The notes below the pieces were generated by a model. It saw nothing but the letters and a program-made list of their open reading frames with translations, searched no databases and had not been told where the DNA came from. A DNA stretch of 64,000 nt from Lama guanicoe (taxonomy: Eukaryota), in the NCBI GenBank assembly GCA_013239625.1, contig MU053661.1, positions 62,001-126,000 on the forward strand. The letters run 5' to 3'. Shown here one piece after another: positions 18,484 to 60,170 of this stretch (within the stretch, counting starts at the first letter, position 1; the number at the start of each line of letters is the position of its first letter). The position numbers and the translations under genes were made by a program.

Positions 18484-18589
18484 GCCGATACAGCCACCAA
18501 CTGAGGAAGCAAGAGAAGAAAGGAGAGTTAGTTATGCTGGGCTAGAGCCCACTTCTAAAATCCTTGTCAGCCACTGAGACTGCCCCGAG

Positions 18590-19420
18590 GACACTGAGCC
18601 TTCCTCCCAGGGACAGGCTGACATGACATGCGTCCTGCAAACCTGGGGCAGCAAAGGCCGTCCCCAGGTCTGGCCCTAGGGGAGATGGGAGCAAGTCCAT
18701 CTGCTCCCCCTGGGGCAGCACCCTTCCCCGCAGACCCCACCTCCTGACTGCACCGCGCCTGCATCTCAGGAACCCACTGACTTGAAAACAAGTGATCCAC
18801 GAACCTGGGTCAGCGGCAGGGAGATGCGCAGCGACCTGGCAAGCTGGTCGATTTGCCCCCATCTCCCTCACAGCCTGTCCAGAGCTCGGCATCTGTTCCT
18901 CCAGGCATGGTACCCAGGTCAGCCTGCTCCTGAGTGGAGGGCGCGGTGTGGTCGAAGGCAGTGGCTGGTTATGTGGTCTGCCCATGGGTGCCTGTGGATT
19001 TCCTTCAAACTCCCCAGAGCATGGCCTGAGATTGGCCTCTGCTGCCCCAGGTTCGTGGAACTCAGGTTACAGGTCAGCCTGCTCCTGGAAGGCGGGTGAT
19101 GTGCTGTCAGGGAACCGCGGCGGCTGCGATGGCGGGATTGGGGCTGCCTTGTGAGAGCGCAGGGGTTGCAACAATTTCCCGCTGCTGTTGCAGCCATCCT
19201 AGCACACTGATCGCACCGCGCCCACCTACCAGGAGCAGCCTGACCTGTAACCTGAGTCAGGAACACCTGGGGATTTAGAGGCTGCCCCCAAGGTCAGGCC
19301 ACAGGGAAGATGGGATCAAATCCAGGGGCTCTCATGGGGCAGCCCCCATTCCATCCGAGGCCCCGCGACCGCACCGCACCCGCCTCCCAGGAGCAGGCCA
19401 TGGTCTGAGGGCCAGTCAGA
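18590..19420. repeat. Second cluster of the same ~160-bp GC-rich repeat, in mixed orientation
   Basis: CAGGTCAGCCTGCTCCTG on + at 18915 and 19070; reverse-complement copies near 18603-18620, 19229-19248 and 19383-19400. Confidence 0.8.
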
Positions 19421-21193: not shown

Positions 21194-21610
21194 TGTAATA
21201 GAGAAGAACAAATCTGACTCCATATTGGATCTGTTCCTTTTTCTTTAACCCTCTGCCGTGTTTTCCAGTCTTAGTCTTGATAGCTCTGCTCCTTTTGTAA
21301 AACAATGTTGCCTTTAGTCTGAAATAAACAGGAGAGCCTATTCTCTTTAAGGATATTAACACTTTTGCACTCCTATAAAGATAACAAGTTACAGAATAGA
21401 AAAAGTTTGTTTTGTTGCAGGTTTTACAGGAACACCATGATCTGACCCACGTGAACAGCTGCAAAGGATTCCAAGAACAAAGAAATCCTACACCAAGAAG
21501 TTTGCAACAACCAACCACAGCCCCTCCCCTGTTTACTAGAAAAGGAGCATGAAGTCTGACTTGGGGAAGATGGTTCTCCAAGATATTAGTCCACCATTAT
21601 CTTGGTCTGC
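21194..21610 (+). mobile_element. ERV LTR fragment
   Basis: Begins TGTAATAGAGAAGAACAAATCTGACTCCAT, an LTR-type TG start; a homologous inverted copy follows. Orientation inferred from the TG start. Confidence 0.6.
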
Positions 21611-21640
21611 CTCTGTCTAGGTAGACCAGGTCATAGTGCC

Positions 21641-21893
21641 TCTGTAAAACCTCTAACAAAACAAAACTTATTTTCTATTCTGCAACTTGTTGTCTCTACA
21701 TAAGTGCAAAAGTGTTACTACTCTTAAAGACCAGAGCCTTTAAAATAGGATCTCCTGTATATTTCAGGATAAAGGCAACATTGTTTTACAAACGGTGCAG
21801 AGCTAGTAAAACTAAGCCTAGAAATGAGGGCAAAGGGTTAAAGCCAAAAAGACAGATCTTCTATGGAGTCAGGTTTTTTTCTTTTCTATTATA
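21641..21893 (-). mobile_element. ERV LTR fragment, inverted copy of 21194-21440
   Basis: Reverse complement matches, e.g. tgtaaaacaatgttgccttta vs taaaggcaacattgttttaca. Confidence 0.65.
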
Positions 21894-22900: not shown

Positions 22901-24038
22901 AATTTTTCTTCAGTAACATGAATTCAAAATAATCAATGTGTCATCAAGGGATTTTCAGAAGTGACCTGCCATGGGCACGAACAATACACACACATAAATA
23001 CACACATATACACATAATTATATACACACATACATACAGGAAAAGAGACAGACTGAAACACAGAGAAGCAGGGGAGACAGAGATACAGAGAGAGAGACAA
23101 AACAGAGAGAGAGGCACTGAGAGACAGAGACAGAGAGAAGGAACACTGGAGCTGGCAATGAGTGGAACTCACGCACATTTTCACAAGTCAGTCTACATGT
23201 CAGAACCCGGTCTCAAAGTCCATCCACCATCCAGGGGAGGGTGTGGGGATCACACAAGGGCGTGGGAACAGAAGGCAAAAAATAGGAAGCCATTGTGCGG
23301 CAGCCCACCACAGAGGCCGAGATGGAACATAGGGCCTGTATGTCAAGATGACAGAATGACCTAGGAGGTTGTATGCCAGAGCGGACGATGTCAGAATTGT
23401 ATTTAATTTCAGTCTCACGACTGGGAGCTGGGAAGCAAGCAGCAAGGAACGTGACTTTCTTCAGACCCCAGGGCAGACCCCGGCCTGTGTGGCATTTGCT
23501 TTGCGCTCCGCCAGCCCACTGTGGGGTCCTTCCACTTTGCTGAGCTGTGCACGAGCTCCCTGTGATGCCAGCCCGTGGGGGTGACAGATGCAATAGGTGT
23601 TTCTAGGTCTAGAGACAGGATGGCTTCTCTAGGAAGCAGGGTCCAGAATGATCCCCACTGTGCCATTGGGGGATTGGGGAGACCCTGAAAGGCACATGGC
23701 TTGTCCAGGGTGATAGCACTGCTGAGTAGGGGGAGCCATGTCTGAAGCCAGCTGTGACTTCAGAGCTGCGACACTGGCTACATCCTGGCCTCCCCAGGGC
23801 TATGGTGTGACTGAGTTTGTCATTATGTGTGGACATGGCATGGGGTGAGAAATGAGAAATCGGCAGCCCAGAAAGGCCCTTGAGGAGCTTTGTGTCAGGA
23901 GGAAGCTTGGAGAAGTGGACCCCAGGAAGTGACTTCACTTCCCTGGCAATGGAGCCCAACAGAACTTGGAACCGAAGTCACCAGGCACCCACTCTGTAGA
24001 GAAGTCCCTACTCAGCTCACCTGGTTGGAGACAGAGGC

Positions 24039-25503
24039 ATGTTCTGCTGCATCCCAATATCCCAAGGCCGCAGCCCACAGAAGGCCCGCAGCGAAGGGCT
24101 GTACCAACGCTGCCGGCGCTGGGTCAGGTCTCACCCAAGGTGCCTCTGGCCTTTTGGCCAGAGAGACACAAAGGTAAAACAGGGAGGACCAGGGCAGGAA
24201 CGGCCAGGCCGGGCCACCACTCAGATCCCACCCAGGTAGCCCCACGGCCCCGTCCTGGGCTGGTGGAGGTGGAGCAGTCATGTTGGTGATGGGTTTCTGC
24301 CTCAAGAAAGAGCAGGTCAGAGGCCTGAGGGGCCGGTCACATAGACAGCCCATGTCAAAGCTGGCTGGCTGGGATGTGGAGAGCCGGGGAAGAGTCCTGC
24401 TGCCCGAGGTGGAGCCCATGCTCTCTGTGTATGTATTTTCCCTCCCAGATGTCTGAGCTGAACAAGGTCCCGGTCTTATCTAGCAGCAGAGGGTCTAGTG
24501 GACAGAATCAGGAGTGTTCCTGGCCGGGCAGGGCTCTGAGAATTCCAGGCCTGGTCAGCTGCTGGTCATTATCATTTCAGAGCCAGATACCACATATTGA
24601 ACAGAAGCTGATGAATAAGAACACCAACTCCCCCTCCCCAATTGAAGGGCTGATGTGCCACTCTTCTGAGGGCCAGCGCAGGGTCCAGGTGGGTCTGGAT
24701 AAGGAGGGGTCCCCACCACCATGGCCCACAAATCAGGGGGGCAGGCCTCCGAACCAGACCTCACCCAGGGCTCTCCCCAGGGAGCAGCCCGGGGCTGACG
24801 GGTAGCTCACAACAGCCGGCTCTGACCTGGAGCACCGTGCCCACCTCGCTGCAAGTCAGGTGGAGGACCAGGAGCCCCTGAAGCAGAGACCGAAGGTCAG
24901 AAAGGCAGGTCTGGTGTATGTGTGTAGGTGAGGGTGGGGCGAGGGCTGGGCCACACAGGGAGGTGTCCCTAGAGGCTACTGTTGGGACCAGAGAAAAGAA
25001 TGGCCTCAGACCACCTGTCTGGAAAAATTCAGTCACAGAACACATCCTGTGGGCACTTTCTGGGTGGGAGATGTCTGGAAAGCTCTGGGAAGGTTTCGGT
25101 CCTTGTAGAGGCACATGGAAAGGGAGGCAGGTGCGTAAATTTTTCCTCTCTCACAGCATGAGCTCTTCCACGAGGCTTAAAACTCTCTCCACATCCAATA
25201 GTTACAGAGGAGGCAGGGGCAAGGGAAGATGTCAGAGACCAAAAATGGGACGAACTGGATCCAGCAGGAGACCCCGAGCTCCCTCCTGCCGCTCCTGCAG
25301 CTCCTCCTGAACCTGCATCTGCAGCTGGGCTGCTGGGGCAAGGAGAACCAGTTCAGGCATCACCACCCCCTGGGGTAGAGCCCCCTCTGCACCCACCCAC
25401 ACCTTCTTCTCCAAAATGTTCTCCAAAATCCCATCATCAGTCCCCTCTCCCTCTCAAACTTCACGTCACTTCCGCTGGAGATGTTTTTCTTTCATTTTCT
25501 TAA
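24039..25503 (+). pseudogene. Truncated Ral guanine nucleotide dissociation stimulator-like (RalGDS/RGL4-type) gene, probably a pseudogene, lacking the CDC25 GEF domain
   Basis: Exons 24039-24173 (MFCCIPISQGRSPQKARSEGLYQRCRRWVRSHPRCLWPFGQRDTK|gtaaaa, resembling the N-terminus of mammalian RalGDS-like expansions), 24581-24688, 24781-24895 (contains GSDLEHRAHLAASQVEDQEP.EAETE, cf. RALGDS GSDLERRAHLLLAQLEHSEPIEAEPE) and 25157-25503 (Pro/Ala-rich linker). TGA at 24796 and 25159; AATAAA at 25567. Confidence 0.8.
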
Positions 25504-25561: not shown

Positions 25562-26555
25562 CATCTAATAAAATATAGGCTTTTCCCCTATTAAATTGTG
25601 CAATTCAGGAGCATTAGGGGCATTCACAATGTTGTGCGACAATCACTACCATCTAGTTTCACACTATTTCTTTCCTCAAAGTGAAACCTTGGATCCAGAG
25701 CACGCACTCCCCTCCCTCCTCACCCAGCCCCTGACAATCCCAAGTCCTCTTTCTCTTGGCGTGTCTTTATTTCTACTGGGTGTTCCCTGCCAATGAAATT
25801 TTAAAAAAGGGTTTTTTCCTCCCTGCCCACATGTTTTAAGCTGGGGCTGAGGATTTTTGTTTGTTTTCACTTGAAACAGCATTTTTATTATTTTCAGGGG
25901 ATATCCAGGGGGATTAAAGATGTGATGCACAAAATGAAGCCCTTTTAGTAACTCTGTGCATAATCTCAGGGTAGACACTGCTGTTCCCCCTGTGACACCA
26001 CAGCCAGAAGACACAAAGGAGATGCTTAGCTCTTCCTGTGGCAAAAACCAAACCAAACAAATCAAAAAAAATTAATAAAAGCCCAGAAAAATTGCTTGAA
26101 ATACAAACCACAACCTGGAAAATGCATTCCTCATAACCCAAGGTTGGAGAAATGTTTCCCATCCCTGTAGTCCAAAATCCTTTTGAAACCCAGTGTTCTA
26201 AACAGAAACAGAACAGGCATGGGCAGTTCCAATGAGAGGCAATGCAGGTGGCCAGTGTGTGTTAGAGATGCTTGACCTCTCAGGTGAGAACAGAGGCAGA
26301 GAGAAACACTGCAGAGACAGCACCGGTCACCATCACACTGGCGGGTCTTTAGTCAGGTGACAACCAGCTCTGGTGACAATGTAAGCAGGCAGAGTCTCCA
26401 GCAGATCCCCCGGAGTGAAGAGTGAAGGGACGCTCGTCTTCAGGAGAACAGGGTGCAGGACACATCAAAGGGCCACAGTTGCATTTCTTCCCCAGAAGTT
26501 CTGATCCTTACAGTTCATCCCATTAAAACCCTTTCACACCTATTCAAAGATGCCT
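25562..26555 (+). repeat. ~1-kb diverged direct repeat, copy B (3' flank of the RalGDS-like unit)
   Basis: Collinear with 21920-22900. Confidence 0.88.
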
Positions 26556-27169
26556 TTTCAAGGGTGTTCATCACAGCACTGGTTGAAATAGTCGGAATTA
26601 AAGCAACACTAATGTTGATTGAGAGGGGATGGGGTCCATTCGTCCTGGTTCATGTGGATGAATGAATGCTGTGCAGTTGGAAAAGTGGGTGTCTGTTCTC
26701 AACCCAATGTCAAGGGAGGCCTCAGGGTGGAAGTATGCAGATCCAGTCTCTGCATCCAGGGTCCCATCTGGACGACCACATATGTGTGAAATCAATATAG
26801 ATGGAAATTGTTCTGATTATGAGTGTGTGAGAGACAGAGATGGAGAGAGACATACTGAGAGACACAGAGACTGAGACATAAGCACCAAATCATTCATGAC
26901 AGTCACCGCTGTGGGTGGGAATTACAAATCTCTTCTCTTTTAGGCAATATTTCAATTTTTTGTAATGTGTCTGTATTACTATCCTAATTCTAAAAGAATT
27001 AAAATCCTATGTTAAAGTGACCCATTCATTACTCATCTATGGAGTAATTAAAGTACATTAATCCTATTTTTAAAAGACTTTAAAGCCTTCTCAGGACTCA
27101 GTTCCATGTCAGCTCCGAGGCAGCAGAGGTTCTCCAGGAGGTCGTGTCTCTTCTGAATCAGCATCCAAT

Positions 27170-43276: not shown

Positions 43277-43744
43277 TTGATAAGCTCTAAATACCTTTAC
43301 TCAAAGAAAATCTTGAAGCCTTCCCTCTTACAAAACTTAAAATGTGTAGCTTGAGCAGGACCAAATTATACTGCATGGGCAGCTACATACCTTCTCCAGC
43401 ACGTGGCCCATGCTACACACACATCGTGTTTTCCTACAGGTAAGAACAGCCCTGAGTGCACAGGGAGCGGGTCCTTCTGGGACAAGGCCTCTGTGGCAGT
43501 GGCCACCAGGTCACCACTCCATCTCACCAGGAGTCCAGGGTTTTCAGACGTGAGGGGACATAGAGCTCATACACTTCAAATTGATTTCCCGAAAAAACTA
43601 TGGAAAAACCAAATTCACCTGCAGTGTGGGAAATATGAGCAAGGCCTCTAAGCAGACTGACAAGCCCAAAGTAAGATGGCCCGATGTTCAGATCGGAACC
43701 AGAACAACGACCACCTGGCCCCAGTTAAATGACCACCGCCTCAC

Positions 43745-43995
43745 CTGCAATGAACTGCTCGTACTCAATGTCAGGGATGTTTCTGTTGAGACTTGGGAGG
43801 TCAAAGGAGTCGGACCAGGGAATCCAGACCTGGTTGATGTCGGGGCTCTGCCAGTGGTAGAGGTGGCCCCAAGGGGATAGCACCAGTACCGGCTTCTCCA
43901 TCCTCAGCAGGGTCTTCAGGATGAAGGCAATGTGGATGCAGATGTTCCTACGGAGGCTGAAGCCCTCTGGAAGGTTGAAGTCACACAGAAGGTAC
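43745..43995 (-). pseudogene. POFUT2: POFUT2 exon 2 copy
   Basis: 251-nt exon, ccag|...|gtgagg: [83 protein letters not shown], matching POFUT2 [83 protein letters not shown] with many substitutions. Confidence 0.93.
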
Positions 43996-44259
43996 CTGGC
44001 AGGGAGCAAAGGTGAGCGGGTCTTCAGGGCCAGGCCTCTGCACAGGAATCCCGGCTTAGAACCGATACAACGGGAATCCCTGCACAGCCCATGGCCTAGA
44101 CTCCAGACACATTCAGCAGCTTCTGGTTTGTAAAGTGGAGGCACTGCCCACCCATCTCCATGTGGCCAATTACTTCAAGTCCGGGAGCAGTTGTGGAAGA
44201 CATCTTGGCGTCTGTCTAACTCCACTAAGCACCTGACTAGCACCTGAGCACCCGTTCTC

Positions 44260-44730: not shown

Positions 44731-45381
44731 CCCTAACCTAGGTGAGACTCTTCTACACTAGAGCCAGGCAAGGGTCCTGGATTCTGTAATGAGTTACCAC
44801 CACCACACCCCTCCCTTCTCTGTTTCTCACAACCTCCATTACTGCAGATGAGGATGTAATCCTTAGCCAGGGCCTCTAACCCTATAAGACTGCTAACTTC
44901 AAGAGAGAGGGTCCCATCTACCATCCCTACACCCAGCATTGTTTATTTTGATTTAAGCCCTAGGTAACTGCTTATCGGCCCTGACCCATGTGTCTTATTC
45001 CTGAGGTTGACTGAACGAACCAATATCTGGAATGAACAGAAATTTCCCTGCAGATAAACAAGGCTGATAAACCACCCCATTCCAACATCTGATTCTGGGG
45101 CTCTTCAAAACCCGGGTAAGGCCCCGCTTCATCTAAGATGGGTTCTCCGCCTGCCCTTCCCGGGGGGTTCTGGGAGGCTGCGGCCACCAAGGGAGACCCA
45201 GACTCGCGGCCCCAGCCCCAGGGCCTGAGGGGGAGGAAAGCTTGAGTCTGTGCCCAAGCCCTGCCCCACCCCGCCCCAAAACGCTCCCCGGCACCATAGC
45301 CCTCCCCGGCCACCACCCCAACCCAGATCCCACCACGGTTCATGTCCACCGGCCCCGCCGACGGAGCGGAAGTACGTTTAC

Positions 45382-45487
45382 CGTCTGTGGGACGCCGCCC
45401 CAGACAGGATATCTGCCGCCTACTGACCAGGCCAGAACTAGTCGCCCGGCCAAGCAAGCCGCCAACCCCAGCAGCAAGCACCGCCAT
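45382..45487 (-). pseudogene. POFUT2: POFUT2 exon 1 copy (disrupted)
   Basis: ATG at 45487; 3' part reads *FWPGQ*AADILSGAASHR|gtaaac (POFUT2: EFWPGQSAADILSGAASRR). Two TAG stops (45440-45438, 45422-45420) and indels in the signal-peptide region. Confidence 0.9.
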
Positions 45488-45548
45488 GGTCCCAGGCAGC
45501 TACACACATCCGGATTCCGTTCCCCGCCCCAGAAGCGCACTCCGGCCC

Positions 45549-46442
45549 GCGTGGAGCGCGGCGCCTGTAACCATGGCAACGCCGCAGGGCCCTCCCCTAG
45601 CGCTTGCGTCGTGCGTCCTCCTGAGTCTAGATGTGCGAGGGCAGAACTTGCGGAGCCAATGGGAGCCAGGGCGCGGCCAGCACAGGGGTGGGGGGAGGCT
45701 TATGGGACAGCTGGGCGGGGCCGTGGAGGGTAGGGCTGCGCGGAGGTCCTCACCTGCAGGTGGCGCCGGCCGGAGGCTGGGGCGGTGCTGCCACCAGTGA
45801 GCGGGGCAGCGGGGCAGCGAGGCAGAGGGGCAGCGAGGCAGCGTGGCAGAGGGGCGGGGGCACCCTCACCTGTCCGTGTGTGGGGATCAGCCTGGGCTCC
45901 GCGGCCTCCCCTTGCACCGGACATGGACCCAGGCTGCCGGTGGGCAAGATAGAGGACTGAGCCCAGGCACGCACGGTTGGCCAGGTAGTGCACCATGCGT
46001 GGAGCGCGGCGCCTGCAACCATGGCAACTCCGCAGGGCCCTCCCCTAGCGCTTGCGTCGTGCGTCCTCCTGAGTCTAGATGTGCGAGGGCAGAACTTGCG
46101 GAGCCAATGGGAGCCAGGGCGCGGCCAGCACAGGGGTGGGGGGAGGCTTATGGGACAGCTGGGCGGGGCCGTGGAGGGTAGGGCTGCGCGGAGGTCCTCA
46201 CCTGCAGGTGGCGCCGGCCGGAGGCTGGGGCGGTGCTGCCACCAGTGAGCGGGGCAGCGGGGCAGCGAGGCAGAGGGGCAGCGAGGCAGCGTGGCAGAGG
46301 GGCGGGGGCACCCTCACCTGTCCGTGTGTGGGGATCAGCCTGGGCTCCGCGGCCTCCCCTTGCACCGGACATGGACCCAGGCTGCCGGTGGGCAAGATAG
46401 AGGACTGAGCCCAGGCACGCACGGTTGGCCAGGTAGTGCACC
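45549..46442. repeat. Near-perfect tandem duplication, period 448 bp (45549-45994 and 45997-46442)
   Basis: Direct comparison shows only two visible mismatches; the ORF track also repeats identical peptides 448 bp apart. Confidence 0.95.
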
Positions 46443-49400
46443 TGAAATGCAGATACCCCAGGCCCGCTGCCAGCCTTGAATATGCGCTGCTAGGCAGTTT
46501 CCATGAAGTCGGGATCTGTCATAAGAAGGGAGGTAGGGCTGGGGTGCCAGATGTCGGGATGGGTGCAGTCTCAGAGGAGAGACATGGTGAGAGGGCGCAG
46601 AGCGGCCCCTGTGTTGGCTGGGCTAAGAGTTTGGGGTATAGAGTGGGGGTGGTGTGAGCCTTGCTCTGTTGTCTCCCCAAGAACCCTCACTCCAGAGCAA
46701 GTGGCTCTCCGCCCCCCACCCCTCACTGCACTACCTGCCTTCCCCAGCACCACCAGGGGTGTGGTCATGTCAGGGCAGGGAAGGCCCAGGGAAGGGGCTC
46801 AATCAGGGGGAGGGGCCACTCTGTAGGGATGCTGGACCTGACAGCGATGCGGTGCTTCGGAACTCCCCTGGGATGTGTTTCTAACCAGTGGGATGGAAGG
46901 GCCTCTCCTTCCTGGGTTGCAGTTGGGGGAACTAGATCCATCATGAATGTAAGCCCTGAAAGTGGAGGCTGCAATACGTCCATTCCTGAAACGAAAAATC
47001 AGGCCCCTCCGGGCAAGGTGACTCAGAAAGTCATTCAGCAATGTTCGGGGTCCCCAGTTTAGGCTTTCAATTAGAGCTGAGCGGCTCAGGAGGCCAGATC
47101 CCTGTCCGTGGCTCCAGGAGTAGGCTTTCTGCTTGGGGACAGGATCCTCACAAACACCTGTGTCTTTGTGGGTCACTCCCCTCTGACAAGCTGGGAGGCA
47201 GGGTACAGTTGTGGAAAATCGTGTTTCCATGAGAAGAGGGCCACCAAGTGGTGGGGGCACAGGAGACAGTAAGAAAAAGTCCCACAGCCTTTCTGGAATC
47301 AAAAAACTGGCAAATGTGGAAAAGTGCATAATTTGTTTTATTGAACAGGCTGCTTATGTACGTTTGGAGGGCCAGTTTCAAAGACTCTGCATCCCTCCAG
47401 GACAATAGCCTCAAGAGTAGAACAGACAGAGTAGGAGGAGATGTTGGGTTTCTCCCAGGATTGAGGCAGAACAGGGATTTCTGCAGATTTGCAAGTAGAC
47501 CCCGACCACTGAGCACGGGGTTACAACCCCACGTGACCCTTGGCGTGTTTGGCTTGGGCTCTGGGTCTGGCCTGATCATGTATTCTTCCATCTGAGTTCC
47601 AGAAACTCAGAGGGTAGACTTAGAGGGGCTGCTCTTGGAACCCGGTGTGGAGACCGAGGGTCCTTTATCCTGAGTCCCCTCAGCCTAATCACTGTAGCTG
47701 AGTTCCAACACCACCCAGGCCCCCATGGTGGCCGTGGAGGGAGAGCAAGCCTGGCAGGTGACCCAGGGTTCCCACTGCTGTTCCCCTCCCTTATCTTTGT
47801 TCCCTTTCTCCCCGGAAGGTGTGATTGTCTCATGTCATGGTGACAAGCCATCTCTCTTCTCTGTCAGGTGGGGTCCCCACCCCCGCTCAGCCTTCTCTCT
47901 GCATGGATGCTGAAGGACCAGGCTCATTTGAAGTTCTGAGCTTGAGCAGTAAGTTGGAAACAAAGAAACCAATGGAAACAAAGAAACAAGTCATTGTGGC
48001 AAAGCTCCCCACCACAGAGAAGCTGTCCTGAGTGGAAGGGAGGGTGTGGGCATGCCCATTTGTTTCTTATCTCCCAGTGCTCTTAGCTTTCTTATTGCAG
48101 ACTTGCATGGTTACAACAAAATGATCTGCAAAACTGAAAATATTTCCTCTCTGGCTTTTACAGAAAAGGCTGACCAGCCTCTGGTTCCCATACCGGTCAA
48201 GTGATTGGAGAATATTTCCAGTTTGGAAACATCTGGGCAGGCCCAGGTTTACAAAATTCTTTAAGAGTAGTTACAGGGTTTTGCCTCTAAACATTTTTTA
48301 CGGCTGTATACTTCTGAGCTGAGGTTGTGCTGTGTAATTCTTAGCCGGGATTTTCTTAAACTGTTTCTCATTTCTTATACCAGACACCCCTAAATTCCAA
48401 GGGGAATGGGATGTTAAGGAAGCCATGGAGTTTAGGAAAATGATACAGATTTCATTTCCACATAAGCCTCGATGTATCTCCATCCTAGGCAGTATCAGTT
48501 CTGCGGTATTGATAGGGGAACTAAATAGCAACCAAATTTATAAAAAATAGTGGGTCATTGGGTACACAAGTACTTCTTTTCAACATTTTTGTAATGTTTA
48601 CAGTTTAAGATGACCATTCCTGAGAAACAGGCAGCCTCTTAGAATGAAATAACAGTTTCCCTGAACCATATTCAATTATTATTTTGCAGACAGCAGGAAG
48701 GGCAATCACACATCCAACACTTGGGGACCTCAAAGATAAAATGTAACTTTCTGAGAGCACACTCCCCCCCCGTCTCCCTCTGCTCTTTTCACTGTCCCAT
48801 TGTCCCTGAAGGCTCTTTCGTAACTCCTGCTCATGACTCTAGTAACTCTTCCTCCTCGTTCCTCAGCTGGTAAGTTTACTTTTCTACTTTGACCAAGCAA
48901 ACTGAAGCCAACAGAAGAGAACTTTCACCAGCAACTCCCAGCACATCCGCTAGCCTTCTGATGTCTGTGACCTCACTCTCACTGCCCCACCTCTTATTAC
49001 AGGTGACATCGAAAGCCAGATCATCCAAAAGTCGCCATGGGGGCCATCCATCCAATCTTCTCTGGGCTGTCACTCCCACATCCATCCTCTCTGTCACTAC
49101 CTCATCTATTTTGTTCTTCTGCTACTTGTCTCTTATCAGTATATAAAAGTCCATCCTCTTAATAGAAAGAAACAGCACTCCTTGACCCTAATTCCCCCCC
49201 ACCAATTGCCACCCCATGTCTTTGCAGCAAATCTTTAATGAGTAGTTTAAACTCACTGTCTGCATATTCTCTTGAGCCATCCCATTTTGCACCCACTCTG
49301 GCTGTTCCCCTGATCCCTTGCTCTATGGAAACTGCTCTGTCAAGGCTATCAGTGACCTCACGATGCTAAATATAGTGGCCAGTTTTTAGTGTTCATCATG

Positions 49401-50609
49401 CGTGGCCCTTTGGCATCATCTGACCCAGCCCTTCCATCCCTCCTCCCACGTGTTCCTGCTTTACTTGGCCTCCAGCCCATCGCTGTGCTTTCGATCCACT
49501 GGCTGGTCTTTTGCCAAAGTCTCCTCTTTTTCCAAACATTTACTGCGAATGTGTCCCGGAGTTGGGTCCTGCGAAACCTTTGGTGGAAGCAACCAGACTT
49601 GGAAATTGATATGCCATCATTTTCTAGACTTGTCCAAAACTCCCTGATTGGCCTTTTCCATTTGGAACTCTCTCCCTGATACTCATATTCTTTTTCTTTC
49701 ATTCATCTTGCTTTCACATTCATACATATGTTCTACTGTGTAAATTACTTTTCCAAATTTTGAATCAGTCCATACATATCATGTAAAATGCTCAGATCTC
49801 TATTATTTCCACTAAGATGCTTATTCTACCTTAGAACATTTCTGCATTTCTGTATTTATATTAATAAAGTAAATAGTATTTCTACAAGCCTCATAGTAAA
49901 ACAGTGTGTTTGTTTGGGGCTATTATGTAACATGAAATAATGATACATCAACATAGTCCTTTTTCATTTAATTTTATGTAACACCAAGATGAGGTTTTTG
50001 CACTGAAGACTGGCTTTATTGAAATTTTACCTACGTTATGGACAGTCAGTTTATGTGAAAGCCCTCATTTCTCCCCTTTTCTGATATATTTTCCATTTGG
50101 CCAGTATAACATATAACTTGGCATGAAATAAAATTCCAAATTCATTCACATAATAAAATTAATATATTTAAATTATATTTTTTAAAGTTAAAAAGAAAGA
50201 AAAAAACCCCAGACTCCTCTACCTATTAGGCATTTCGGTGGCAATATCTAATAGACTCCTTAACCATGACATTGAAGAACTGAGCTGAGTCTAGCCCCTT
50301 TCCACCTTCTCAGCACCATCTTGTCCCATCCCCTGTGGATGGAGAGGACATCCATCCCATTTTCCAGGTCCAGATGTTGCAACCATATTCTTTCTCTCTC
50401 TTTCTCTTAAACACACACACACAGCAAATCCAGCTTGCTAGAAAATTCTGGCTACTCTGTCTTCATTAACCACCTACTCCCTGTTCCCCACCCTCCTAGG
50501 AGCCACCTTCAGCCCCTTCTTGGACACCAAATAGCCTCCTTCTTCCATCTTTGTTTTTCTACAATTTCATCCACACAGAGTCAGAGGGAGCCTATAAAAG
50601 CATACATTG

Positions 50610-50730
50610 AGGGGGTGGGTGTAGCTCAGTGATAGAGCGCATGCTTAGCATGCATGAGATCCTGGGTTCAAACCACAGCACCTACACAAAAATAAATAAA
50701 TTACCCTCCCCCCGAAAAAAAACAAAACAA
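50610..50730 (+). mobile_element. tRNA-derived SINE (vic-1-like) with target-site duplication
   Basis: gtagctcagtgatagagcgcatgcttagcatgcatgagatcctgggttcaaacc; TSD aaagcata(c/a)attg. Confidence 0.88.
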
Positions 50731-53700
50731 AAGCATAAATTGGACATCACCCATCCCATCAAAACTCACTAAAAGAGTCACCAATTCATTAGGAGCCAAA
50801 GTCGTCCCAAAGTCTTCCAGGACCCGGCGTGCTCTGCCTCTCCGCCCACACTCTCCACCTCACTCTGGGGGCCTCTGGCTCCGGCTCTTCCTTCTTCCTC
50901 CGGATCTATGCTGCTTCAAGTTCATTACTCCGTGAGATCTGCCAGGATTGCCTTGTTCCCTCCTGTCTGCCTCGCACCCCACCGCCATCACCTGAGTTTG
51001 CTCATATCACTCTTATCTTTCCCCAAGCTCTTGCTACCCCCAACATGCTGCCTGTTTCATCTGCTAAAACTCTGAGCCCCCAGTGGTGGGGAGTCGTGTC
51101 TAATTTGTTGACTAATAAAGCCCAAGAGCCTTGGGAACAGGTCTAGTTACTAGATTCCCATATGTAGTAGGAGCTTATGCAGATTTGCTGAATGAATGCA
51201 GAGGTCCTGGTCCAATCCGATGGAGCACTTGTGTGTCCTGCTCAAAGAATAACTCTCCTTTCCCCCTGAGAGGGGGTGACCACTTCCTTGGTGATCAAAG
51301 GCAAGGTCTATTTTCTTTATGCTGTTAAACTTAGGCGGGGAGACTGGGGGATCTTCACTTATATTTTAAAATTTGATTCACTCTGCAGTGTGTCTTATGT
51401 CTATGTATTCTTTTAAGAAACCGTTTATGAGTGATCATTCTTCCATCAGATTGAACTGGAACCAGGGGGAATTACGAAGCCTGTCCCATCGGACATCCTG
51501 TGTGTCATGTCCTGTGACCCAGTGGATGCTCAGCACGTAAGTGAACCGGCAAGAGTGAGTGAAGAGATGGGAGCATCTCATTTTTGTGGTGGCTGCACTC
51601 TGTCCGATGCCTTGAGATTTGGGGGTTTACAAGTGCGGAGGGGAGAGGTCAGGTTCTCCGTGATCTTCCTGAGTGCCCTGGCCTTACCCATTCCCACAGC
51701 CCCCTCTGGGCAGCCAAGGCCAGGAGCTGGGCCACCGGCGATTGTGCTGATCAATAATCCACCTCACACAAAGTCCGGGGGTAGGAGCAGCCAGCACAAC
51801 TGGTTGTAGACTCTGGAGTCAGGTCCTTGGAGGAATTCCTCACTGGACGATGTTTTGGACCTTTTATTTTTCTCTATAGCCTCCAGCTGAAGAAACAGAT
51901 TGCCTTAGATACATGAAAGGTGAGGACACCTACTATCCCCATGGAACCCTGGTGGGGCTGGGAGTGTGCTGTTTGTACAGCCGGTGGGCTCGTGTTGCTT
52001 TGGGCATTCCTGTGCCTGAATTCCTGCAGTACACTCGGTGGTAAGGACGGGGGTGCCTGGCAGGGAGGGAAGCGGGTCGGAAGACTGCACAGCTGGGGAG
52101 ATGTTAACCTGGGGTGAGCGGGGACCTGCTGATGCATGGCATCTCGGTGTAGGGAACTCTCCACACTCAGAGGGGTTCCCACTCCCGCCGGGGCCCTTTG
52201 ATCAGGGTGCTGGGCTGTCTGCACAGCAGGGTCCCTGTGAGGATCATGGTGCCTTCAGGCAGTGGGAAGTGAGGGGTCAGTGGCACATAATGTGTTTCCT
52301 AATCTGCAAAACTGGAATGATGTTAACCATCCCGCAGGTTCGTTGATGGGCTGGGACACACTAGACAACCAGGAGCTGGAATTCCTCTGTCCCGATTGTT
52401 TTCCTTCCTTCCCACTATTTGCTCTCACAAGCTCAGTCTCTCTGTCTCTCTCTCTCTTTCACTTGTGGATTTCTCTCCTGCTCTGGTTTCATTTGATTCC
52501 CACCCTCCTCCCAATCCCCAGATGAGTGAAATTAATTTCTGTGTGTCAGTTCCAAATTCCCTGGAAAGATACACTCTCCCCTCTGGATTTGTTGTCCAAC
52601 CCATCAGTTGCAGCCAGAGGAGAGAGTCCCTCTGTGACCAGTGGAGGGGCTCTGCCCAGGCCCCAGCCACCACTGTGGGAGCACATAGCTCTCCGAGGAG
52701 GAGGTACTGGCTGTGACTTGGTGTCACTAAGTGTGAATTTATGTCTCCTCTTGCCCCACCTTCATCCTCCTAAACAAAGTTGAAAATTAAACATTCCCGA
52801 GATTTGTGTCATGGATCACTCAGGGTGGGGGCTAAGAGGGCTGGATTCCCTGCTGAGTGTAAGGGGCTACAGTGACTCCCCAACGAGAGCCTGTGAAGGG
52901 AACAGCACCGGCCCCACCGGACACTTAGGGCGCTGAGTCTGCGTGACATTGAGCCAGGCTTCTGACCACAGCTCAGGGGTCTGGTCCGACCGGTTAGTCT
53001 TTGAAACCAACCAGCTTTGGATTCTTCAATCCCGCCCTGAGGTTTTACCTGAACCACCAACTTCTGTATCTCTGAAGAGAGATGATGAGGACCCGTCACA
53101 TAAGGCATTTGCACGTAAGGCATTTGCACAGCCCTGTGCGGGAATTTGTGCTGCATGGTCTGCCCGGCGATCTGAACGAGGTTGGTATTTTACTGATCTT
53201 AGAAATAGTCTGGTTTCCTGATGCACTGTTTCACTTAACAAGCAACAGAAGCCACCTCTGGCTGATAAAAGTAAAAAAGGGACTTAAAGAAAAGATACTG
53301 GGAGGGTGCATGGAGTTGCCCGGACCAGAGCCGACCCGGGGGCCGTAGGAGATGTTGGGGAGCCCTAGGCACCAGGCTGGGCAGGGTGTCACCAGGCCCC
53401 CTGCTGCCGCAGCAGGGACCCCCCTCCTCCTGACCCTCCACCTCAGTGCAGGTTCGTGTCCTGGCAGGGCCATGTCACACTGAAGCCACCAGCCCACACC
53501 TCAGTGGGAGAGTGGGCCCGTCTCAGCTGAGGGAGTGCCTGGTGTGGGGAGAGGCCCAGTTAGAGGAAGGCGGGTCCCCTACTGTTCTGAGTTAAGGTGT
53601 AATTCAGTGCCGGTCACTCAGGAGAGCCAGGGTGGTCTGACCTCATTGTGGTGACTATGCCGTCTGAGTTCACTTATTACTTTCTAGGTTGGAAGAACCA

Positions 53701-55569
53701 AGAGGGAGAAAAAGTGGAGGTTCTCGTACTTATTTTATATTTCCCACGTACCAGGTATAATAAGCAAGCCACTTCAGACAAGGCCCAGAACAAACACATA
53801 AATAGTCCACGGAGCAAGTCGTGCGGTCAGGCCTCTGCAGCCCCGAAACCCGTGTCCTAATCAGCTCCATAGTTACCAGTGGAAGTTGTAGGGATTTATG
53901 GGACTGTGTGCTCCTGTGGGGGCTGGGATGTGTGTGTTTAAATCCAGATCTTCAGAAACTCGGCTAGAACCACAGCCCCTGATTGTCTGCATGGAGGCAG
54001 AGGAGGGGAGGCTTGCAACCTCTAGTCCAGCTTGTGAAGAGCTCAGAAGTTGCTCCTTCTGTCCTTAAAACAATACCAGAGCTGAGGGAGCTGAAAACCC
54101 ACTACTCTTCTAAGATCCATAAGGAAACTGAGGGGGAAAGCTGCCCCCAACCCAGAGAGGCAGCCGGGCAGGCTTGGAGAGTCACAGCTCCCAGGGCAGA
54201 AATATCTTTTGTAAGAACCCCGGGGGCAGGCAGATTTAACAGGTCCCTGAGGCCAGCTGGAGGCTCAGCGTGGGGAAGTCTGAGTGTGACAACACCAGGA
54301 GGCCAGTCAGAGGGGCCCCCTGCTCTTTTTCATGCATTTTACCTCCAGGACCATGTCATGTTCTCAGAATGAAGGTCAGAGGAAAACTCCTCATGTTTCC
54401 TGCCTGGAAAGGAGAAAATAACTCTATTGAAATACATCCAGAACATTCTGTTTCATTGGCGGAAGTTGTTTTGTGTTTGTTTTTTTTAATGAAAAATTAT
54501 TTTACCAGAGCCTAACCAACCTGGGAGAAGGGAAATCCCTTCTGTCTCACCCAAATTGCGGTGGGGGGAAAGAGACACACTTTTGGAGGTCACAGATCAG
54601 GGCATAGTCTCAATGAGAACTAATCACAGGACTGCAGATGCCCTGCTCTGTCCCGCTCCCCCAACATCTTACCTCCATGTCAGTAGGGCCCCTGTGTAAT
54701 AACAGGAATAAAACTAAAGAAGTAAATGTCTCAGGAGTGTCTAGGGAAAACCCAAAGACAGCAGGGAGATGAAAACAAGGACACACAGGCTGTTTTAGCC
54801 TCTCACACCAATAGCTGTAGCAAACAACACACAGCCCAGCCCCAGTAGATAAACAGACAACCTCACAGAAGAAATTATTTATTTTGGTTCTCTTACCCAG
54901 TGCATTCCATGGTGCATTCTCGCCTAGAATTGAGTGGCAGCAAGTCCATCTCAGAAGGGACATAACTGAAGAGGGATGGCTTCCCAGAATCTGGCGGGCA
55001 GAGAGAGCACCAGCCTGAGTGAGAGCATGATGAGGGGTGGGGTAGGGGGTGGGCTGCCTTCTTCCCCAAATAAGGAACCTTCCTGAGACCAGCACAGTGG
55101 AAGGGAGGGCCATGGGGTGGAAGCAGACAGACTTCTTCCTGAGAACTGATGGGATGCCTCAAAGAGACTTTTCAGCTGCCCAAACTGGGCCCTGAGGATG
55201 GGAGCCAGTCGGTCTGACTCAGAGCCCAGGACTGAGGTGGGCTCACAGCAGGCCGGTCTTACTTGGCCGGATCCATTTCACTTCTCCGAAGCCCTGTGTA
55301 AAACATGAAATGTGGACGGCCTGGTGAGCACAGCTCTGCCCTCAAGACCTGTTTCAACTCCTCTCTTCCCGGAAAACAGCATCATGAACCCATCTGGGTG
55401 ACCTCACAGAGATCACCCTAGTGGCCCAGGCTAGTGACCGGGAACATGTACCTTCCTGCAGGCAACCCCTGACGTCCACTGATGCATCATATACTGGCAA
55501 AGAGTGAGTCCCTGTGCATTGGTCTTACAGCAGAGACTCTGCCAAAGGCCCAAGAGGTGGTGTGTGGGA

Positions 55570-55745
55570 CATGCAGGGGTGCAGGATTGTAGGCAGTGCA
55601 AAAATGTAACTGGTGACAGGGGTGCAGGGGCTGTGGAGGGTGCAGGCAGTTCAGGGGATGCGGGGGTGGAGGGAAGCAGAATTGCAGAGAGTAGCAGGGG
55701 TGCAGAGGTGCAGGGAGTGTAGGGATGCAGGGAGGTGCTCAGGGA
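55570..55745 (+). repeat. Degenerate short G-rich (GTGCAGGGG-like) tandem repeat
   Basis: Repeated gtgcaggg(g)/cagggg units directly upstream of the 160-bp array. Confidence 0.75.
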
Positions 55746-55780
55746 CGTGGCCACCATTAGAAGGCAAGTACACATCCTCG

Positions 55781-57890
55781 CAGTCAGCCTGACCCCGGGA
55801 GGCTATTGCAATGGTTTGGGGTGGCGGCGGCGGCGGCGGTGGCGTTTGGGAGGCTGCCCAGGCAAGCCGGTCGATTTCTTCTCTTCCCTGCAGCCTGGCC
55901 TGTGTTGGGGCTTGGCGGCCGGAGATTCGCCAGATGTTGGACTCCAGGTAAGCTTGCTCCTGGGAGGTGGGGCGGTTAGGTCAGGGGGCGGTGGCAGCGG
56001 CAGGGGGGCGGAGCGGGGCTGCCCCTGGCCAACTGGTGGAATAGCTGCCTTTTCCCGGCTGCCGGGCCTGGGAGCGGCCTCTGCTTCCTCAGGTCGCCGG
56101 ACACGCCTGTCCCACTCAGCTTGCTGAGTGGGGAGTGGGTGCGGTGCCGTTAAGGTGCAGGGCCCACGGGGGGAGGGGAGCTGCCGTGGGGAAGCCGGTC
56201 AATCCGCTCCGCTCTCCCCGGCGGTGGAGCCAGGAGCGGCTTCTGCTGCCCTAGAGGCGGGACGCGGGTCTCCAGATGAGCTTGCTCCTGGGAGGCGGCG
56301 GCGGAGGCGGCAGGGGCAGGGGATGTGTTCCAGGGAGTTGCTCCATTTCTTCTCTCCCCCACGGCCTGGCTTGGGGGCGACGTCTGCCGCCGGATCCGAC
56401 TCCAGGTAAGCTTGCTCCTGGGAGATGGGTGCGGTGCGGTCAGGGGGCTGGTAAGGTGGTGGCTGCAGGCATAGGGAGGCTGCCCCGGAGGAGCTTGTGG
56501 ATTAGCTCCATGTCTTCACCGCGTGGCCTGAAGGCGGCCTCTGCTGCGCCAGGTCCCGGGACACCCCTGCCCCACTTTGCCTGCTGGGGGCGGGAGGCAG
56601 GGTAGTTAGGGTGCAGGGGTGGCGGTGGTCGGCGGCCTGCAGAGGGGGAGCGGGCCCACTTGCTCCCATCTTCCCAGCGGCTTGTCCTGGGGGCGGTCGC
56701 TGTTGCCCTGGGTTACGAGACATGTGTATCCTAGTTGGCCTGACCCCGGGAGGAGGACTTGGTACGTTGGGGGTGGTGGCAGCAGCAGCAGGTTTTCCCG
56801 TGGATCTTGACCATTTGTTCCCACTTTCCCCCATGGTTTGCCCTGGGGGCGGTCCCTGTTGTCCCAAGTTCGCCGGACGTCCATATCCAAGTCAGCCTGC
56901 TCCCTAAAGGAGGCCACCGTGAGGTCAGGGGGCAAGAGTGGTGGCTGCTGCGGGGGTAGGGGGCTGCCTTGTGGGGCTGGTGGATTGGCTCCCGTCTCCC
57001 CAGTGGCCTGGTGTGGGAGTGGCCTCTCCTGCCCCAGATCACCAGACACACCTGTCCCATTCAGCCTGCTGGGAGAGGGGCGCCCTGGGCGGTGCCTTTA
57101 AGGTGCGGGGGTGGCGATGGCGGGGGTAGAGGATCTGCAGCGCGGAGCCTGTCAATTTGCTCCCCTCTTCTCCGCGGCCAATCCTGGGGGCGTCCTCTGC
57201 TGCCCAAGAAGCCGGATGCCCGTCTCCAGGTCAGCTTGCTCCTGGGAGGCGGGCGCGATGCGGTCGAGGGGCAGAGGCAGCTGCGACGGCCGGCTGCCCC
57301 GCCAAATGGGGCCACTTCTTCTCCTCTCCCCTGACCTGGCCTGGGGACGGCCTCTCCCGCCCAAGATTCGCCTGACACCCCACACCCGGTCAGGTTGCTC
57401 CTGGGAGGTGTGCGCGGTGAGATCAAGGGTTGGAGAGGAGAGGGGGCTGCCCCTGGCGAGCTGGAGGATAAGCTGCCATCTCCCTGGAGGCCTGACGTGG
57501 GGGCGGCCTCTACTGCCCCTCGTTCCCAGGTAAACCTTCTGAGGGTCATATTGCCCCGAGGGTGAGGTAGGGTGCGGGGATGGCGGGGTTTCGCGGGGGT
57601 ATGGAGCCTGCCGCTTGGGATCTGGTGGTTTAGCTCCCATCTCTTCCGCAGCTTGGCCTGGGGGCAGCCTCTGTTGCCCCAGGTCGCAAAGCACAGTTTC
57701 CCTGACAGCTTAGCCACCGCAGGTGGGCAGGATGTGCTGAGGGGGCGGAGGCAGCCGCCAAGGCAGCGACGGAGGGGGCTGTCCCTGGCCAGCTGGTCAA
57801 TTTGTTGCCATCTCAACTTTTGCTGCCCCAGTTTCGCAGGACGCCCTACTCCAGTTTATCCTTCTCCTGGGTGGTGGCCGCAGTGCATGC
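55781..57890 (+). repeat. Diverged GC-rich tandem array, ~14 monomers of ~160 bp
   Basis: Anchor motif CAGGT(A/C)AGC(C/T)TGCTCCTGGGAGG or variants at 55781, 55945, 56113, 56273, 56403, 56573, 56732, 56888, 57058, 57227, 57387, 57543, 57702, 57852; GGCCTCTGCTGCCC-like motif precedes most anchors. Confidence 0.85.
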
Positions 57891-59684
57891 AGCCCAAGGT
57901 CTGGGCTCTCACCTGGGGAGGGGCAGAACTCTCTTGTTCTCCTTTGTCTTTATTCTTCAGCGAAGTGGTTACTGGACCCAATTCTTAATTCTGAGAAAAT
58001 GTAGCCTGTGTTACGGAAGAGCTGCTGGACAGTGAGGATCCTGGGTGGGTTTTCACATCTGCTGATGCCCCAGGCAGGCAGGAAAGGTATTACTCAGAGC
58101 TTCTTAGTCTGGTGTTGGGGGATGGCCGCGCCATCTTCACCATGCTTTTTAAAAATGTGTTACTCCCCTCTTTTTCCTAGGTGACATTTTAGGTTATTGG
58201 GTCACAGATTGCTGGCACATTCAACCCTGTTCTCAAACATCTTTTACACTTGGGTGAAGTGATAAGTAAGGAAGATGATTTACTGAAAGATAAGAATACT
58301 TAAATTTGCATTAAAGCTACATTCTGTCAATCTTTCTCAAATGATTTTTCTCTGATTCTAAATCCACGACCTAGTGAATGTTGTACTCTTATGTAAATCA
58401 TTGATCTTCACATCACATTTGTTGAGTGGTAAATGAGATTTGTTAAGTAGATTATTCCTGAAAGGAAAAGCTCAGGCTTTTGAGAATTCCTAGTCTGATG
58501 TCACCCAGGCAGTCACAGTTGAAGACAGAACTGATATAAAAATCCCTCAGCTGCCTGAACTGCAAAGCTTCTGGAATTATTGATCCCTGAAATGCAGGTG
58601 ACTCTTGATGATAATCTGGGGGATGGTTTATATGATCAGATTCTTCCAGTCCTGTAAATGGGTTCCGTGGCCCCAGCCCCGAGAGAACTGGTCATAAGGG
58701 CCATATCGTGTAGGGTGGGATGGAAAGGCAAGGTGTAAGAGCTGGAATCACTGAGATTCCACACTCGCTACACACAGACTCCAGAGCCTAATTGTTGTCA
58801 GATTCTGTTCTGTACTTGAGAGTGTGTTCAGACATGATTCTTGCCCTTCTGGAGTCACTGCCTGGGTGGAAGTAACCTTTACATAAATCTGGGAAGGATG
58901 GCAATTAAGTAGATGGGCTTTTATGGTTCTCAGTGTGCCCAGGCTCGCTCTTCCAGGCACTCGTGGGACTAAGGAGAGTCATGTTATTCACTCATTCACT
59001 GATTTATTACCCTTGAATTGATAATTTTTCCCACAGTAAGTGAAACAAGGGATCAGGAACCTGAGTTTTATCCCCTCTCCTATCACTGATTGTATCTGTC
59101 AGTCGGGAGCCCTGCGTATGCATTGTGAAATGGTGGTATTTCTTGCCCAATGGGGCTGCACTGTGAGTTCTGAGAATCAGGGGAGACACGTGGGTAGGAC
59201 AGCACCCTGACACACATGGCCCCCCACCCCGTGAGACTGCATTGTCGATGCTCATGTGACCCGATGCATACGGCGGTGCTACACCTGAGCATGTTTAGTG
59301 ATCTTGGTGGCTATGAAAATACAGACTACCGGTCCCTACCTCTTGAGACTCTGAGGGTGTGCACCCCAGAATTCTGCATTTTAAGAAGCACTTTAACTAA
59401 TTCTGATGAAGATGATCTGAGTGTCCCACTGAGAAACACTGGTGTGCGAGGAACCAATATTGAGGATTCTCAGGGAGCAATTTCATTTCAGGATTGTCCA
59501 AGGGCCCTCACTTGTGACTTTTGCATTGGGTTTAATTGTATGTGTTCAGAGTGATGTCTCTCACTTCCAGTGCTTGTCAGCATGCTCTGTGCAGGGATTT
59601 GTTCTCACTAGCTATCAAAAACTGTGATTCTTCAGGTCACCAAGCTAGAGTGTGAGCGATCTTTTATTTTGGTTTTCTTTATTG

Positions 59685-60170
59685 CAATGCAGAGTCTCCC
59701 GAGAAGAGATTCAGACTGAACAGCTTTGTGTCAGAATTTGGAAGACCGCTGGTGCCCAAGGTGTTGTGTGGCAGGGCAATGACGAATCTAGGTCCCTCTT
59801 TCACTGCTACATCAGTGAAGTGGACCACTTGGACAAGGCCAAAGCTGGTATCTCAACCATTGCCCTTGACAATGATATTCGGCTCCAGGAAGCCATCAGA
59901 TGCATCAGGTGGCCAGAGGAGGAGCCAAACAAGCTCATGAAATGTGACATCCCCAACTTCATCAACACGGACCAGAACTCTTCCTCTGGGGAAGATGATC
60001 TCCTGATTTTGGAACCACCGATTGTTCTAGAAAATAAGGCAGTTGCCCAGACCTCACACAAAGACTTGAATAGAGAAACGTGCTTTGTCAAGTGTCTTTC
60101 TGAAGATGTGAAGTCTGTCTTTGTATGGCAGGAATTCCTCTTTCACAAAGTTGTATGTGTTTTTGTCTGA
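59685..60170 (+). pseudogene. MRAP2: Orphan MRAP2 last coding exon copy (cytoplasmic tail only)
   Basis: NAESPEKRFRLNSFVSEFGRPL then, after a frameshift, QGNDESRSLFHCYISEVDHLDKAK...DIPNFINTDQNSSSGEDDLLILEPPIVLENKAVAQTSHKDLN, matching the MRAP2 C-terminus. Original acceptor now reads TG; no in-frame stop at the expected position; TM-encoding exon not found. Confidence 0.9.

What the first reader, a model, noticed from the sequence alone, without database searches (positions are those of the whole stretch)
55781..57890. Unrecognised GC-rich ~160-bp tandem array with nested higher-order structure
Seen: ~14 diverged monomers (anchor spacings 130-170 bp), G-rich on +, CpG-retaining. Monomer variants recur periodically: the GCCTGACCCCGGGAGG type at 55781 and 56732 (951 bp apart), the ACAC.CCTG.CCCA type at 56113, 56573 and 57058 (trimer ~460-485 bp; hexamer ~945 bp). 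Several monomers carry a 5' splice-site-like CAG|GTAAG or CAG|GTCAG (55945, 56403, 57227). I cannot match it to any repeat family I know. Inference: a lineage-specific satellite-like or multi-promoter/first-exon array built by successive unequal crossing-over.
Basis: partly seen in the sequence, partly recalled or inferred. Interest (0 to 1): 0.75.

Follow-up and report, generated by a model that had tools for sequence, protein, structure and literature searches.

The report
Fossil repeat supplying camelid duplicon exons
An old, worn-down GC-rich tandem repeat lies inside a gene-like DNA segment that camels and alpacas have copied to many chromosomes, and predicted transcripts of those copies splice pieces of the repeat in as mix-and-match internal exons, sometimes joined to a captured fragment of the appetite gene MRAP2.

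Summary
The array is real: 13 full monomers of 130-170 bp, about 60% identical, with a clear trimer order (p about 1e-4) and a weak hexamer (p about 0.03). It is neither a live satellite nor a promoter array. It lies inside a segmental duplication of at least 11 kb. Predicted camelid proteins map collinearly across it: at least 20 Bactrian camel loci on 9 large sequences, plus dromedary, wild camel and alpaca loci; no non-camelid hit was found. All 52 models examined enter from an upstream exon, then take internal exons from monomers 1, 3/4, 7, 9 and 13. Four models end in a duplicated, frameshifted MRAP2 last exon 1.8 kb downstream. All three reading frames occur, so the products are probably non-coding or proto-genes. 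Seven more monomer pieces lie at 18.6-19.4 kb, so the repeat is older than this array; its origin is unresolved. Transcription rests on database models of paralogues, not on reads. The scan already reported a similar array elsewhere in this genome (e1-7859016).

The parts
55782..57890 (+). Decayed GC-rich tandem array: 13 full monomers of 130-170 bp plus a partial 14th, in A-B-C trimers
55894..55947 (+). Internal exon from the 3' third of monomer 1 (pyrimidine-rich CAG acceptor, CAG|GTAAG donor); in 51 of 52 models, in all three frames
56230..56405 (+). Internal exon over monomer 3 end and monomer 4: tandem acceptors at 56,230 and 56,234, dead donor CAG|AT at 56,275 read through, donor CAG|GTAAG at 56,405; 39 of 52 models reach monomer 4
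56846..56923 (+). Minor exon from monomer 7 end, ending at the monomer boundary (56,890) or at a donor inside monomer 8; 5 of 52 models
57209..57229 (+). 21-nt micro-exon (longer forms exist) at monomer 9 end, donor CAG|GTCAG; 22 of 52 models, 10 reading on into monomer 10
57709..57898 (+). Exon over monomer 13 and the partial 14th (acceptors 57,709 and 57,832, donor after 57,898); 20 of 52 models
55380..55503 (+). Non-repeat exon just upstream of the array, present in 52 of 52 models
48961..55016 (+). Further upstream exons of the family models (blocks near 48,961, 51,447, 51,880, 52,295, 54,900)
58181..58254 (+). Non-repeat downstream exon; 10 of 52 models
59685..60108 (+). Duplicated MRAP2 last exon, no transmembrane exons, frameshift near 59,772 against the parent; the acceptor used by paralogue models reads TG, not AG, in this copy
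45100..46500 (.). CpG island with a 448-bp near-perfect duplication; candidate promoter of the unit (inferred, not shown)
18568..19398 (.). Second cluster of the same monomer family: 7 pieces (3 near full length) arranged minus, plus, minus, beside a CpG island

Best explanation
The array is a fossil tandem repeat that now serves as the alternatively spliced middle of a camelid multi-copy transcript. Step 1 (periodicity shown, mechanism inferred): an old ~160-bp GC-rich monomer was multiplied head to tail, then as a trimer and perhaps a hexamer, by unequal crossing-over, and then stopped homogenising. Step 2 (shown in sequence): the monomer consensus has a CAG|GT[C/A]AG donor at the unit boundary and a pyrimidine tract with CAG about 54 nt upstream, so each unit is a potential mini-intron plus mini-exon; decay left a different subset of sites alive in each unit. 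Step 3 (shown through protein models): the array, upstream exons and a captured MRAP2 last exon were copied as a segment of at least 11 kb to many chromosomes, already before Camelus and Vicugna separated. Step 4 (inferred from database models): a promoter upstream of the array drives transcripts that pick surviving acceptor-donor pairs in many combinations. The RNAs are most likely non-coding or proto-coding, with no fixed frame and little or no selection on a protein.
For: Models map collinearly from 48,961 to 60,108. The three best boundary donors (8/9, 8/9, 7/9 with GT) are the ones models use; the CAG|AT boundary is read through in all 39 models that reach monomer 4; monomers 2, 5, 8 end without GT and their 3' halves appear in no mapped chain. 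About 16 exon combinations among 52 models (20 patterns, 4 being pattern misses). At least 20 LOC ids on 9 sequences of 25-164 Mb in C. bactrianus, 5 in C. dromedarius, 4 in C. ferus, 4 V. pacos accessions on 3 sequences. All 10 hits and all 8 (named) are camelid. 13 MRAP2-like copies lie on one side of a 100/99 branch against 11 true MRAP2. Monomer 1 exon is read in three frames. In P0106 the MRAP2 part (110/129) is no better conserved than the array exon (48/55).
Against: No RNA reads were laid; that RefSeq isoform series rest on transcript alignments is recalled practice, not seen. The models belong to paralogues and were found with a query holding monomers 1, 3 and 4, so counts for those exons are inflated by selection; 52 of 121 cluster members were examined, many near-identical. 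Some models are plainly ab initio (P0002, P0008 use other upstream pieces). This copy has a dead MRAP2 acceptor. The promoter is not located. Copy numbers come from protein records, not from DNA.
Confidence: 0.68

Rival explanations
1. The monomer is a relic of a known interspersed element (5' UTR monomers of an old LINE-1, or an LTR/ERV leader repeat), exonised by chance inside the duplicated segment. This concerns the origin and is compatible with the splicing account.
For: Monomers occur at two places in 64 kb and on both strands; cluster-2 monomers are as far from the array (59%) as array monomers are from each other (60%); GC-rich monomeric 5' UTRs are known in LINE-1 (recalled).
Against: Flanks of the array are 25-27% A against 43% in the L1-like stretch at 17.5-18.5 kb, and by eye no L1 or LTR body adjoins either cluster. 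The Pfam scan of 110 flank frames was blank but also missed the L1-like control, so it is uninformative.
Confidence: 0.3
2. The family is protein-coding and selected: a true core-duplicon gene family in which the array supplies variable N-terminal segments, some fused to the MRAP2 cytoplasmic tail.
For: Many copies keep about 100 open codons of the MRAP2 tail in the parent frame; their shared stem branch is long against the camel parent (window 72/93 to the parent, whale 83/93); models of up to 377 aa exist.
Against: Three frames are used for the same exon; G-run and GCG-run length changes shift frames between copies; only 4 of 52 models reach MRAP2; several copies stop early; no Pfam family in 11 models; no Atlas hit; open frames are over-represented because only annotated proteins are searchable.
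Confidence: 0.15
3. The splice models are annotation noise from mis-mapped reads or ab initio calls on a repeated GC-rich segment; the array is inert DNA in a duplication-rich block.
For: Pseudogene-rich duplicated blocks are described in alpaca and ascribed to genomic context, not selection (PMC13751797, sections 10 and 15 part 1); the window holds unrelated broken exons; no reads were seen here.
Against: The same junctions recur in four species and several annotation rounds, coincide with the best-scoring homologous donors and avoid the mutated ones; a 21-nt micro-exon and long isoform series are unusual for ab initio calls (inference).
Confidence: 0.12
4. The array is a multi-promoter or first-exon array, each monomer starting its own transcript.
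For: CpG retention (o/e 0.52) and repeated donors.
Against: 52 of 52 models have an upstream exon before the array exons; array exons begin at AG acceptors. Protein models cannot show extra non-coding starts, so minor internal starts are not excluded.
Confidence: 0.07

Closest known systems
Primate core duplicons, e.g. LCR16a/NPIP (PMC7419210; passages read)
   Same: A 10-20 kb multi-exon segment copied to interspersed sites and non-homologous chromosomes, lineage-restricted gene models with shifting exon structure, fusion to pieces of other duplicated genes.
   Different: No sequence relation found; no kept reading frame and no selection shown; variability comes from splice choice among decayed repeat monomers, not from a coding VNTR; camelid, not primate.
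Alpaca pseudogene-rich repetitive blocks and VpaSat satellites (PMC13751797; abstract, introduction, methods sections 6-7, results, first part of discussion, supplement cells cut at 400 nt)
   Same: Dispersed broken gene fragments in GC-rich, repeat-rich duplicated regions of camelid genomes.
   Different: Their blocks (NEK10, ATF5, FMN2, ABHD17A) are reported absent or reduced in camels, while this unit is well represented in Camelus; their 14 consensus units are 1.8-8.5 kb, none near 160 bp; MRAP2 is not named in the main text.
Human F7 intron 7 minisatellite with repeated donors (PMC1557585; abstract only)
   Same: A tandem repeat multiplies a 5' splice site.
   Different: There the 37-bp units repeat only the donor and the extra sites stay silent; here each 160-bp unit also has an acceptor, so separate internal exons are formed.
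Higher-order-repeat satellites such as alpha satellite (recalled)
   Same: Diverged monomers ordered in a multimer; same-position monomers are more alike.
   Different: Only about four trimers, 67-76% identical, 2.1 kb in all, no ongoing homogenisation.

Membership tests
Core duplicon (features as in PMC7419210) | Many interspersed copies, also on non-homologous chromosomes | tested here: met
   At least 20 C. bactrianus loci on 9 sequences of 25-164 Mb, by protein records
Core duplicon (features as in PMC7419210) | Transcriptionally active | tested here: inconclusive
   Multi-isoform database models with recurrent junctions; no reads laid
Core duplicon (features as in PMC7419210) | Encodes a lineage-specific gene family with a kept reading frame | tested here: inconclusive
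   Hits camelid only, but three frames are used for one exon
Core duplicon (features as in PMC7419210) | Flanked by other duplicated gene pieces, giving fusion transcripts | tested here: met
   MRAP2 exon joined in 4 of 52 models; anoctamin and POFUT2-like exons elsewhere in the window, their link to the unit not shown
Core duplicon (features as in PMC7419210) | Often positive selection | not testable with these tools
   No paralogue DNA; protein proxy shows no extra conservation
Satellite DNA with higher-order repeat | Head-to-tail monomers with multimer periodicity | tested here: met
   Trimer p=1e-4, hexamer p=0.03
Satellite DNA with higher-order repeat | Long, homogenised array | tested here: not met
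   2.1 kb, 60% monomer identity, 67-76% trimer identity; same order in Camelus and Vicugna models
Described camelid satellites (VpaSat01-16, SAC-SAT) | Sequence match | tested here: inconclusive
   Four monomer motifs absent from the visible first 400 nt of 14 consensus cells; rest of each unit and SAC-SAT not seen; VpaSat05 primers do not match
LINE-1 5' UTR monomer array | Adjoining A-rich ORF1/ORF2 body | tested here: inconclusive
   Flanks not A-rich; Pfam scan blank with a failed control
LINE-1 5' UTR monomer array | Match to a Dfam/Repbase family | not testable with these tools
   No repeat library available
rDNA intergenic spacer repeat | Lies beside rRNA genes | tested here: not met
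   Rfam finds only two tRNA-like hits in the 64 kb; an orphan spacer piece is not excluded
Alternative first-exon array | Each unit gives a first exon spliced to common downstream exons | tested here: not met
   52 of 52 models have an upstream exon; array exons have acceptors

The most novel reading that the evidence does not exclude
Camelids carry their own core duplicon, a transcribed segment that seeds interspersed duplications as LCR16a does in primates. Its fossil repeat works as a combinatorial exon ladder that lets the transcript join whatever gene fragment lands downstream, and some copies make soluble MRAP2-tail proteins that act on melanocortin-receptor signalling and energy balance.
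Probability: 0.08. Interest if true: 0.82.

Novelty: new member of a known kind. Interest (0 to 1): 0.44.

Why it matters
PMC7419210 (passage) contrasts the interspersed duplications of humans with the tandem clusters of most other genomes. A camelid-wide, multi-chromosome, multi-isoform unit would be a second testable case outside primates. It would also explain dozens of 'uncharacterized LOC' and 'MRAP2-like' entries in camel and alpaca annotations, which can distort gene-family and selection scans of a metabolic gene. The array itself is a natural experiment in splice-site choice: 13 homologous units with live and dead sites whose use can be predicted and checked. Without evidence of function it remains a duplication-borne proto-gene.

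Tried and rejected
TRF does not see the array. No whole genome is held, so copies could not be counted at DNA level. Rfam: nothing on the array. A 21-nt monomer motif in JGI metagenome contigs gave 11 loci, none with more than the motif itself: chance. Pfam: nothing for the downstream ORF, 11 family models or 110 flank frames, where the L1-like control also failed. Atlas: no usable hit. An ORF over the second monomer cluster has no homologue among 10 candidates. VpaSat05 primers match the array no better than shuffled primers (98 and 189 of 200). The monomer tree has no starred branch; one group of five (monomers 2, 5, 8, 11, 12) reaches 92/91. My first reading that the hexamer adds nothing was revised. 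Monomer 12 does not fit its class well. Literature searches without a description of this family: MRAP2+camel+duplication, alpaca+MRAP2 (28), camelid+segmental duplication terms, repeat-unit exonisation terms (68), VicPac4/ampliconic (78), MRAP2+pseudogene+Camelidae (81), SAC-SAT (83); for these I saw listings only, except the papers cited, and PMC8605555 (passages; no 'satellite' or 'tandem'). The library lacks most subscription papers, including the SAC-SAT paper. Earlier scan findings by sequence or nearby place: none. One search gave nothing of use.

Full report
Observation. The array is present as described. Fourteen unit starts lie between 55,782 and 57,854, spaced 130-170 bp. Repeated 7-mers at the monomer, trimer and hexamer lags (84, 150, 98) exceed the maxima of 200 dinucleotide shuffles (41, 47, 40). 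Monomers are 60% identical on average, GC is 67%, G exceeds C on +, and CpG o/e is 0.52. The trimer is firm: p=0.0008 by identity and 1e-4 by shared derived bases. The hexamer is weak: absent by raw identity, p=0.03 by shared derived bases, with alternate trimers 71-76% alike against 69-72% for neighbours. Monomer 12 fits its class poorly.

The monomer is not confined to the array. An HMM of the 13 monomers finds seven further pieces at 18,568-19,398, arranged minus, plus, minus, with E-values down to 9e-24. They are as far from the array monomers (59%) as those are from each other, and three keep the CAG|GTCAG boundary. So the monomer family and its donor are older than this array. I could not name the family: no repeat library is available, Rfam is blank, the flanks are not A-rich like LINE-1 bodies, and the Pfam scan of the flanks failed its own control.

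Surroundings. 1.8 kb downstream lies a copy of the last exon of MRAP2. It lacks the transmembrane exons and is frameshifted near 59,772 against the parent. Thirteen such copies, from dromedary, Bactrian camel, alpaca, two unnamed records and the window, fall on one side of a 100/99 branch against 11 true MRAP2 proteins. It carries its upstream pyrimidine tract, which points to DNA-level duplication, not retroposition (inference from sequence). The window also holds broken anoctamin and POFUT2-like exons (gene names beyond the Pfam family are recalled), so it is a mosaic of duplicated pieces.

What the array is part of. Two alpaca models with the MRAP2 tail begin with peptides read from the array. 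Searching with that N-terminus gave 10 proteins, all camelid; a search of 1.84 billion representatives with an array-derived model gave 8, all camelid. The listed names give at least 20 loci on 9 sequences of 25-164 Mb in Camelus bactrianus, 5 in C. dromedarius, 4 in C. ferus and 4 accessions on 3 sequences in Vicugna pacos. Forty-five models mapped by chained tblastn are collinear with the window from 48,961 to 60,108. The same monomer order in Camelus and Vicugna shows that the array was fixed before these lineages split (11-25 million years in PMC13751797, introduction) and has since been copied as a passenger.

How the array is used. I examined 52 of 121 cluster members. All 52 contain the non-repeat exon ending at 55,503. 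Then 51 take the 3' third of monomer 1, 39 run through monomers 3-4, 5 take monomer 7, 22 monomer 9, 20 monomer 13, 10 a non-repeat exon at 58,181 and 4 the MRAP2 exon, in about 16 combinations. The boundary at 56,275 reads CAG|AT and is read through in all 39 models that reach monomer 4. Monomers 2, 5 and 8 end without GT, and no mapped chain includes their 3' halves. Acceptors lie about 54 or 22 nt before a boundary. Each monomer is thus a potential mini-intron plus mini-exon, and decay chose which survive. These are internal exons, so the first-exon reading fails for the models seen. The counts are not independent: the query held monomers 1, 3 and 4, and many models are near-identical isoforms.

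Coding or not. The monomer 1 exon is read in all three frames, run-length changes shift frames between copies, no Pfam family is found, and in P0106 the MRAP2 part is no better conserved than the array exon (85% and 87% to the window). The products are most likely non-coding or proto-coding. Against this, many copies keep about 100 open codons of the MRAP2 tail, but only annotated open frames can be found by these searches. In this copy the GT and AG sites of the array exons are intact, while the MRAP2 acceptor used by paralogues reads TG, with another AG 8 nt on; this copy may not make the same fusion.

Limits. No reads were laid, so expression, tissue and start site are open; that RefSeq isoform series rest on transcript alignments is recalled. 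The CpG island at 45.1-46.5 kb is only a candidate promoter. Copy counts are from protein records. Absence outside camelids rests on protein searches, which would miss an untranslated or unannotated orthologue.

Comparison and novelty. It works like a primate core duplicon (LCR16a/NPIP; PMC7419210, passages): interspersed copies, shifting gene models, fusion to neighbouring fragments. Activity, a kept frame and selection are not shown, so I do not file it as one with certainty. It fails the long-homogeneous-array test for satellites and the first-exon test. The alpaca satellite survey (PMC13751797) lists no 160-bp unit and does not name MRAP2, but I saw only the first 400 nt of each consensus. 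Eight searches of the paper library found no description of this family. The F7 comparison came from note e1-7788522 and was checked in the abstract.

Verdict. A real fossil repeat with a trimer order, exonised within an apparently undescribed camelid multi-chromosome duplication. New member of a known kind; interest 0.44, higher if transcription and function are shown.

Noticed in passing
window 18,568-19,398: Second cluster of the same monomer in mixed orientation (minus, plus, minus), between an L1-like 3' end (17.5-18.5 kb, recognised by eye) and a CpG island (19.4-20.1 kb, o/e 0.72). An ORF across it has no homologue.
   Followed up: partly
window 25,250-25,365, minus strand: A 20-nt stretch matches the visible part of the alpaca macrosatellite consensus VpaSat05-8550 exactly and the likeness continues by eye; may be a decayed piece of that unit.
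   Followed up: partly
window 7,330-7,640, minus strand: Broken anoctamin exon (Pfam Anoct_dimer, E 5e-8) with a frameshift or stop; ANO6-like by recall.
   Followed up: partly
window 43,725-44,021, minus strand: Isolated O-fucosyltransferase exon (Pfam O-FucT, E 2e-8); POFUT2-like by recall.
   Followed up: partly
window 45,549-46,442: 448-bp tandem duplication, 99.6% identical, inside the CpG island upstream of the unit: very recent or an assembly artefact.
   Followed up: no
window 21,925-22,908 and 25,567-26,559: 1-kb direct duplication at 77% identity; also an inverted LTR-like pair at 21,196-21,891 (78%).
   Followed up: no
window 55,560-55,740: Decayed 8-bp G-rich minisatellite directly upstream of monomer 1; its motif resembles part of the monomer.
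   Followed up: no
window 56,230-56,394 and 59,685-60,011 against P0007: Alpaca model P0007 is 98% identical to the window in the array exon but 81% in the MRAP2 part, hinting at recombination or conversion between copies.
   Followed up: no
window 50,615-50,686 and 10,703-10,775: Two Rfam tRNA hits, probably tRNA-derived SINEs; a third related copy lies at 6,636-6,732 on the other strand.
   Followed up: no
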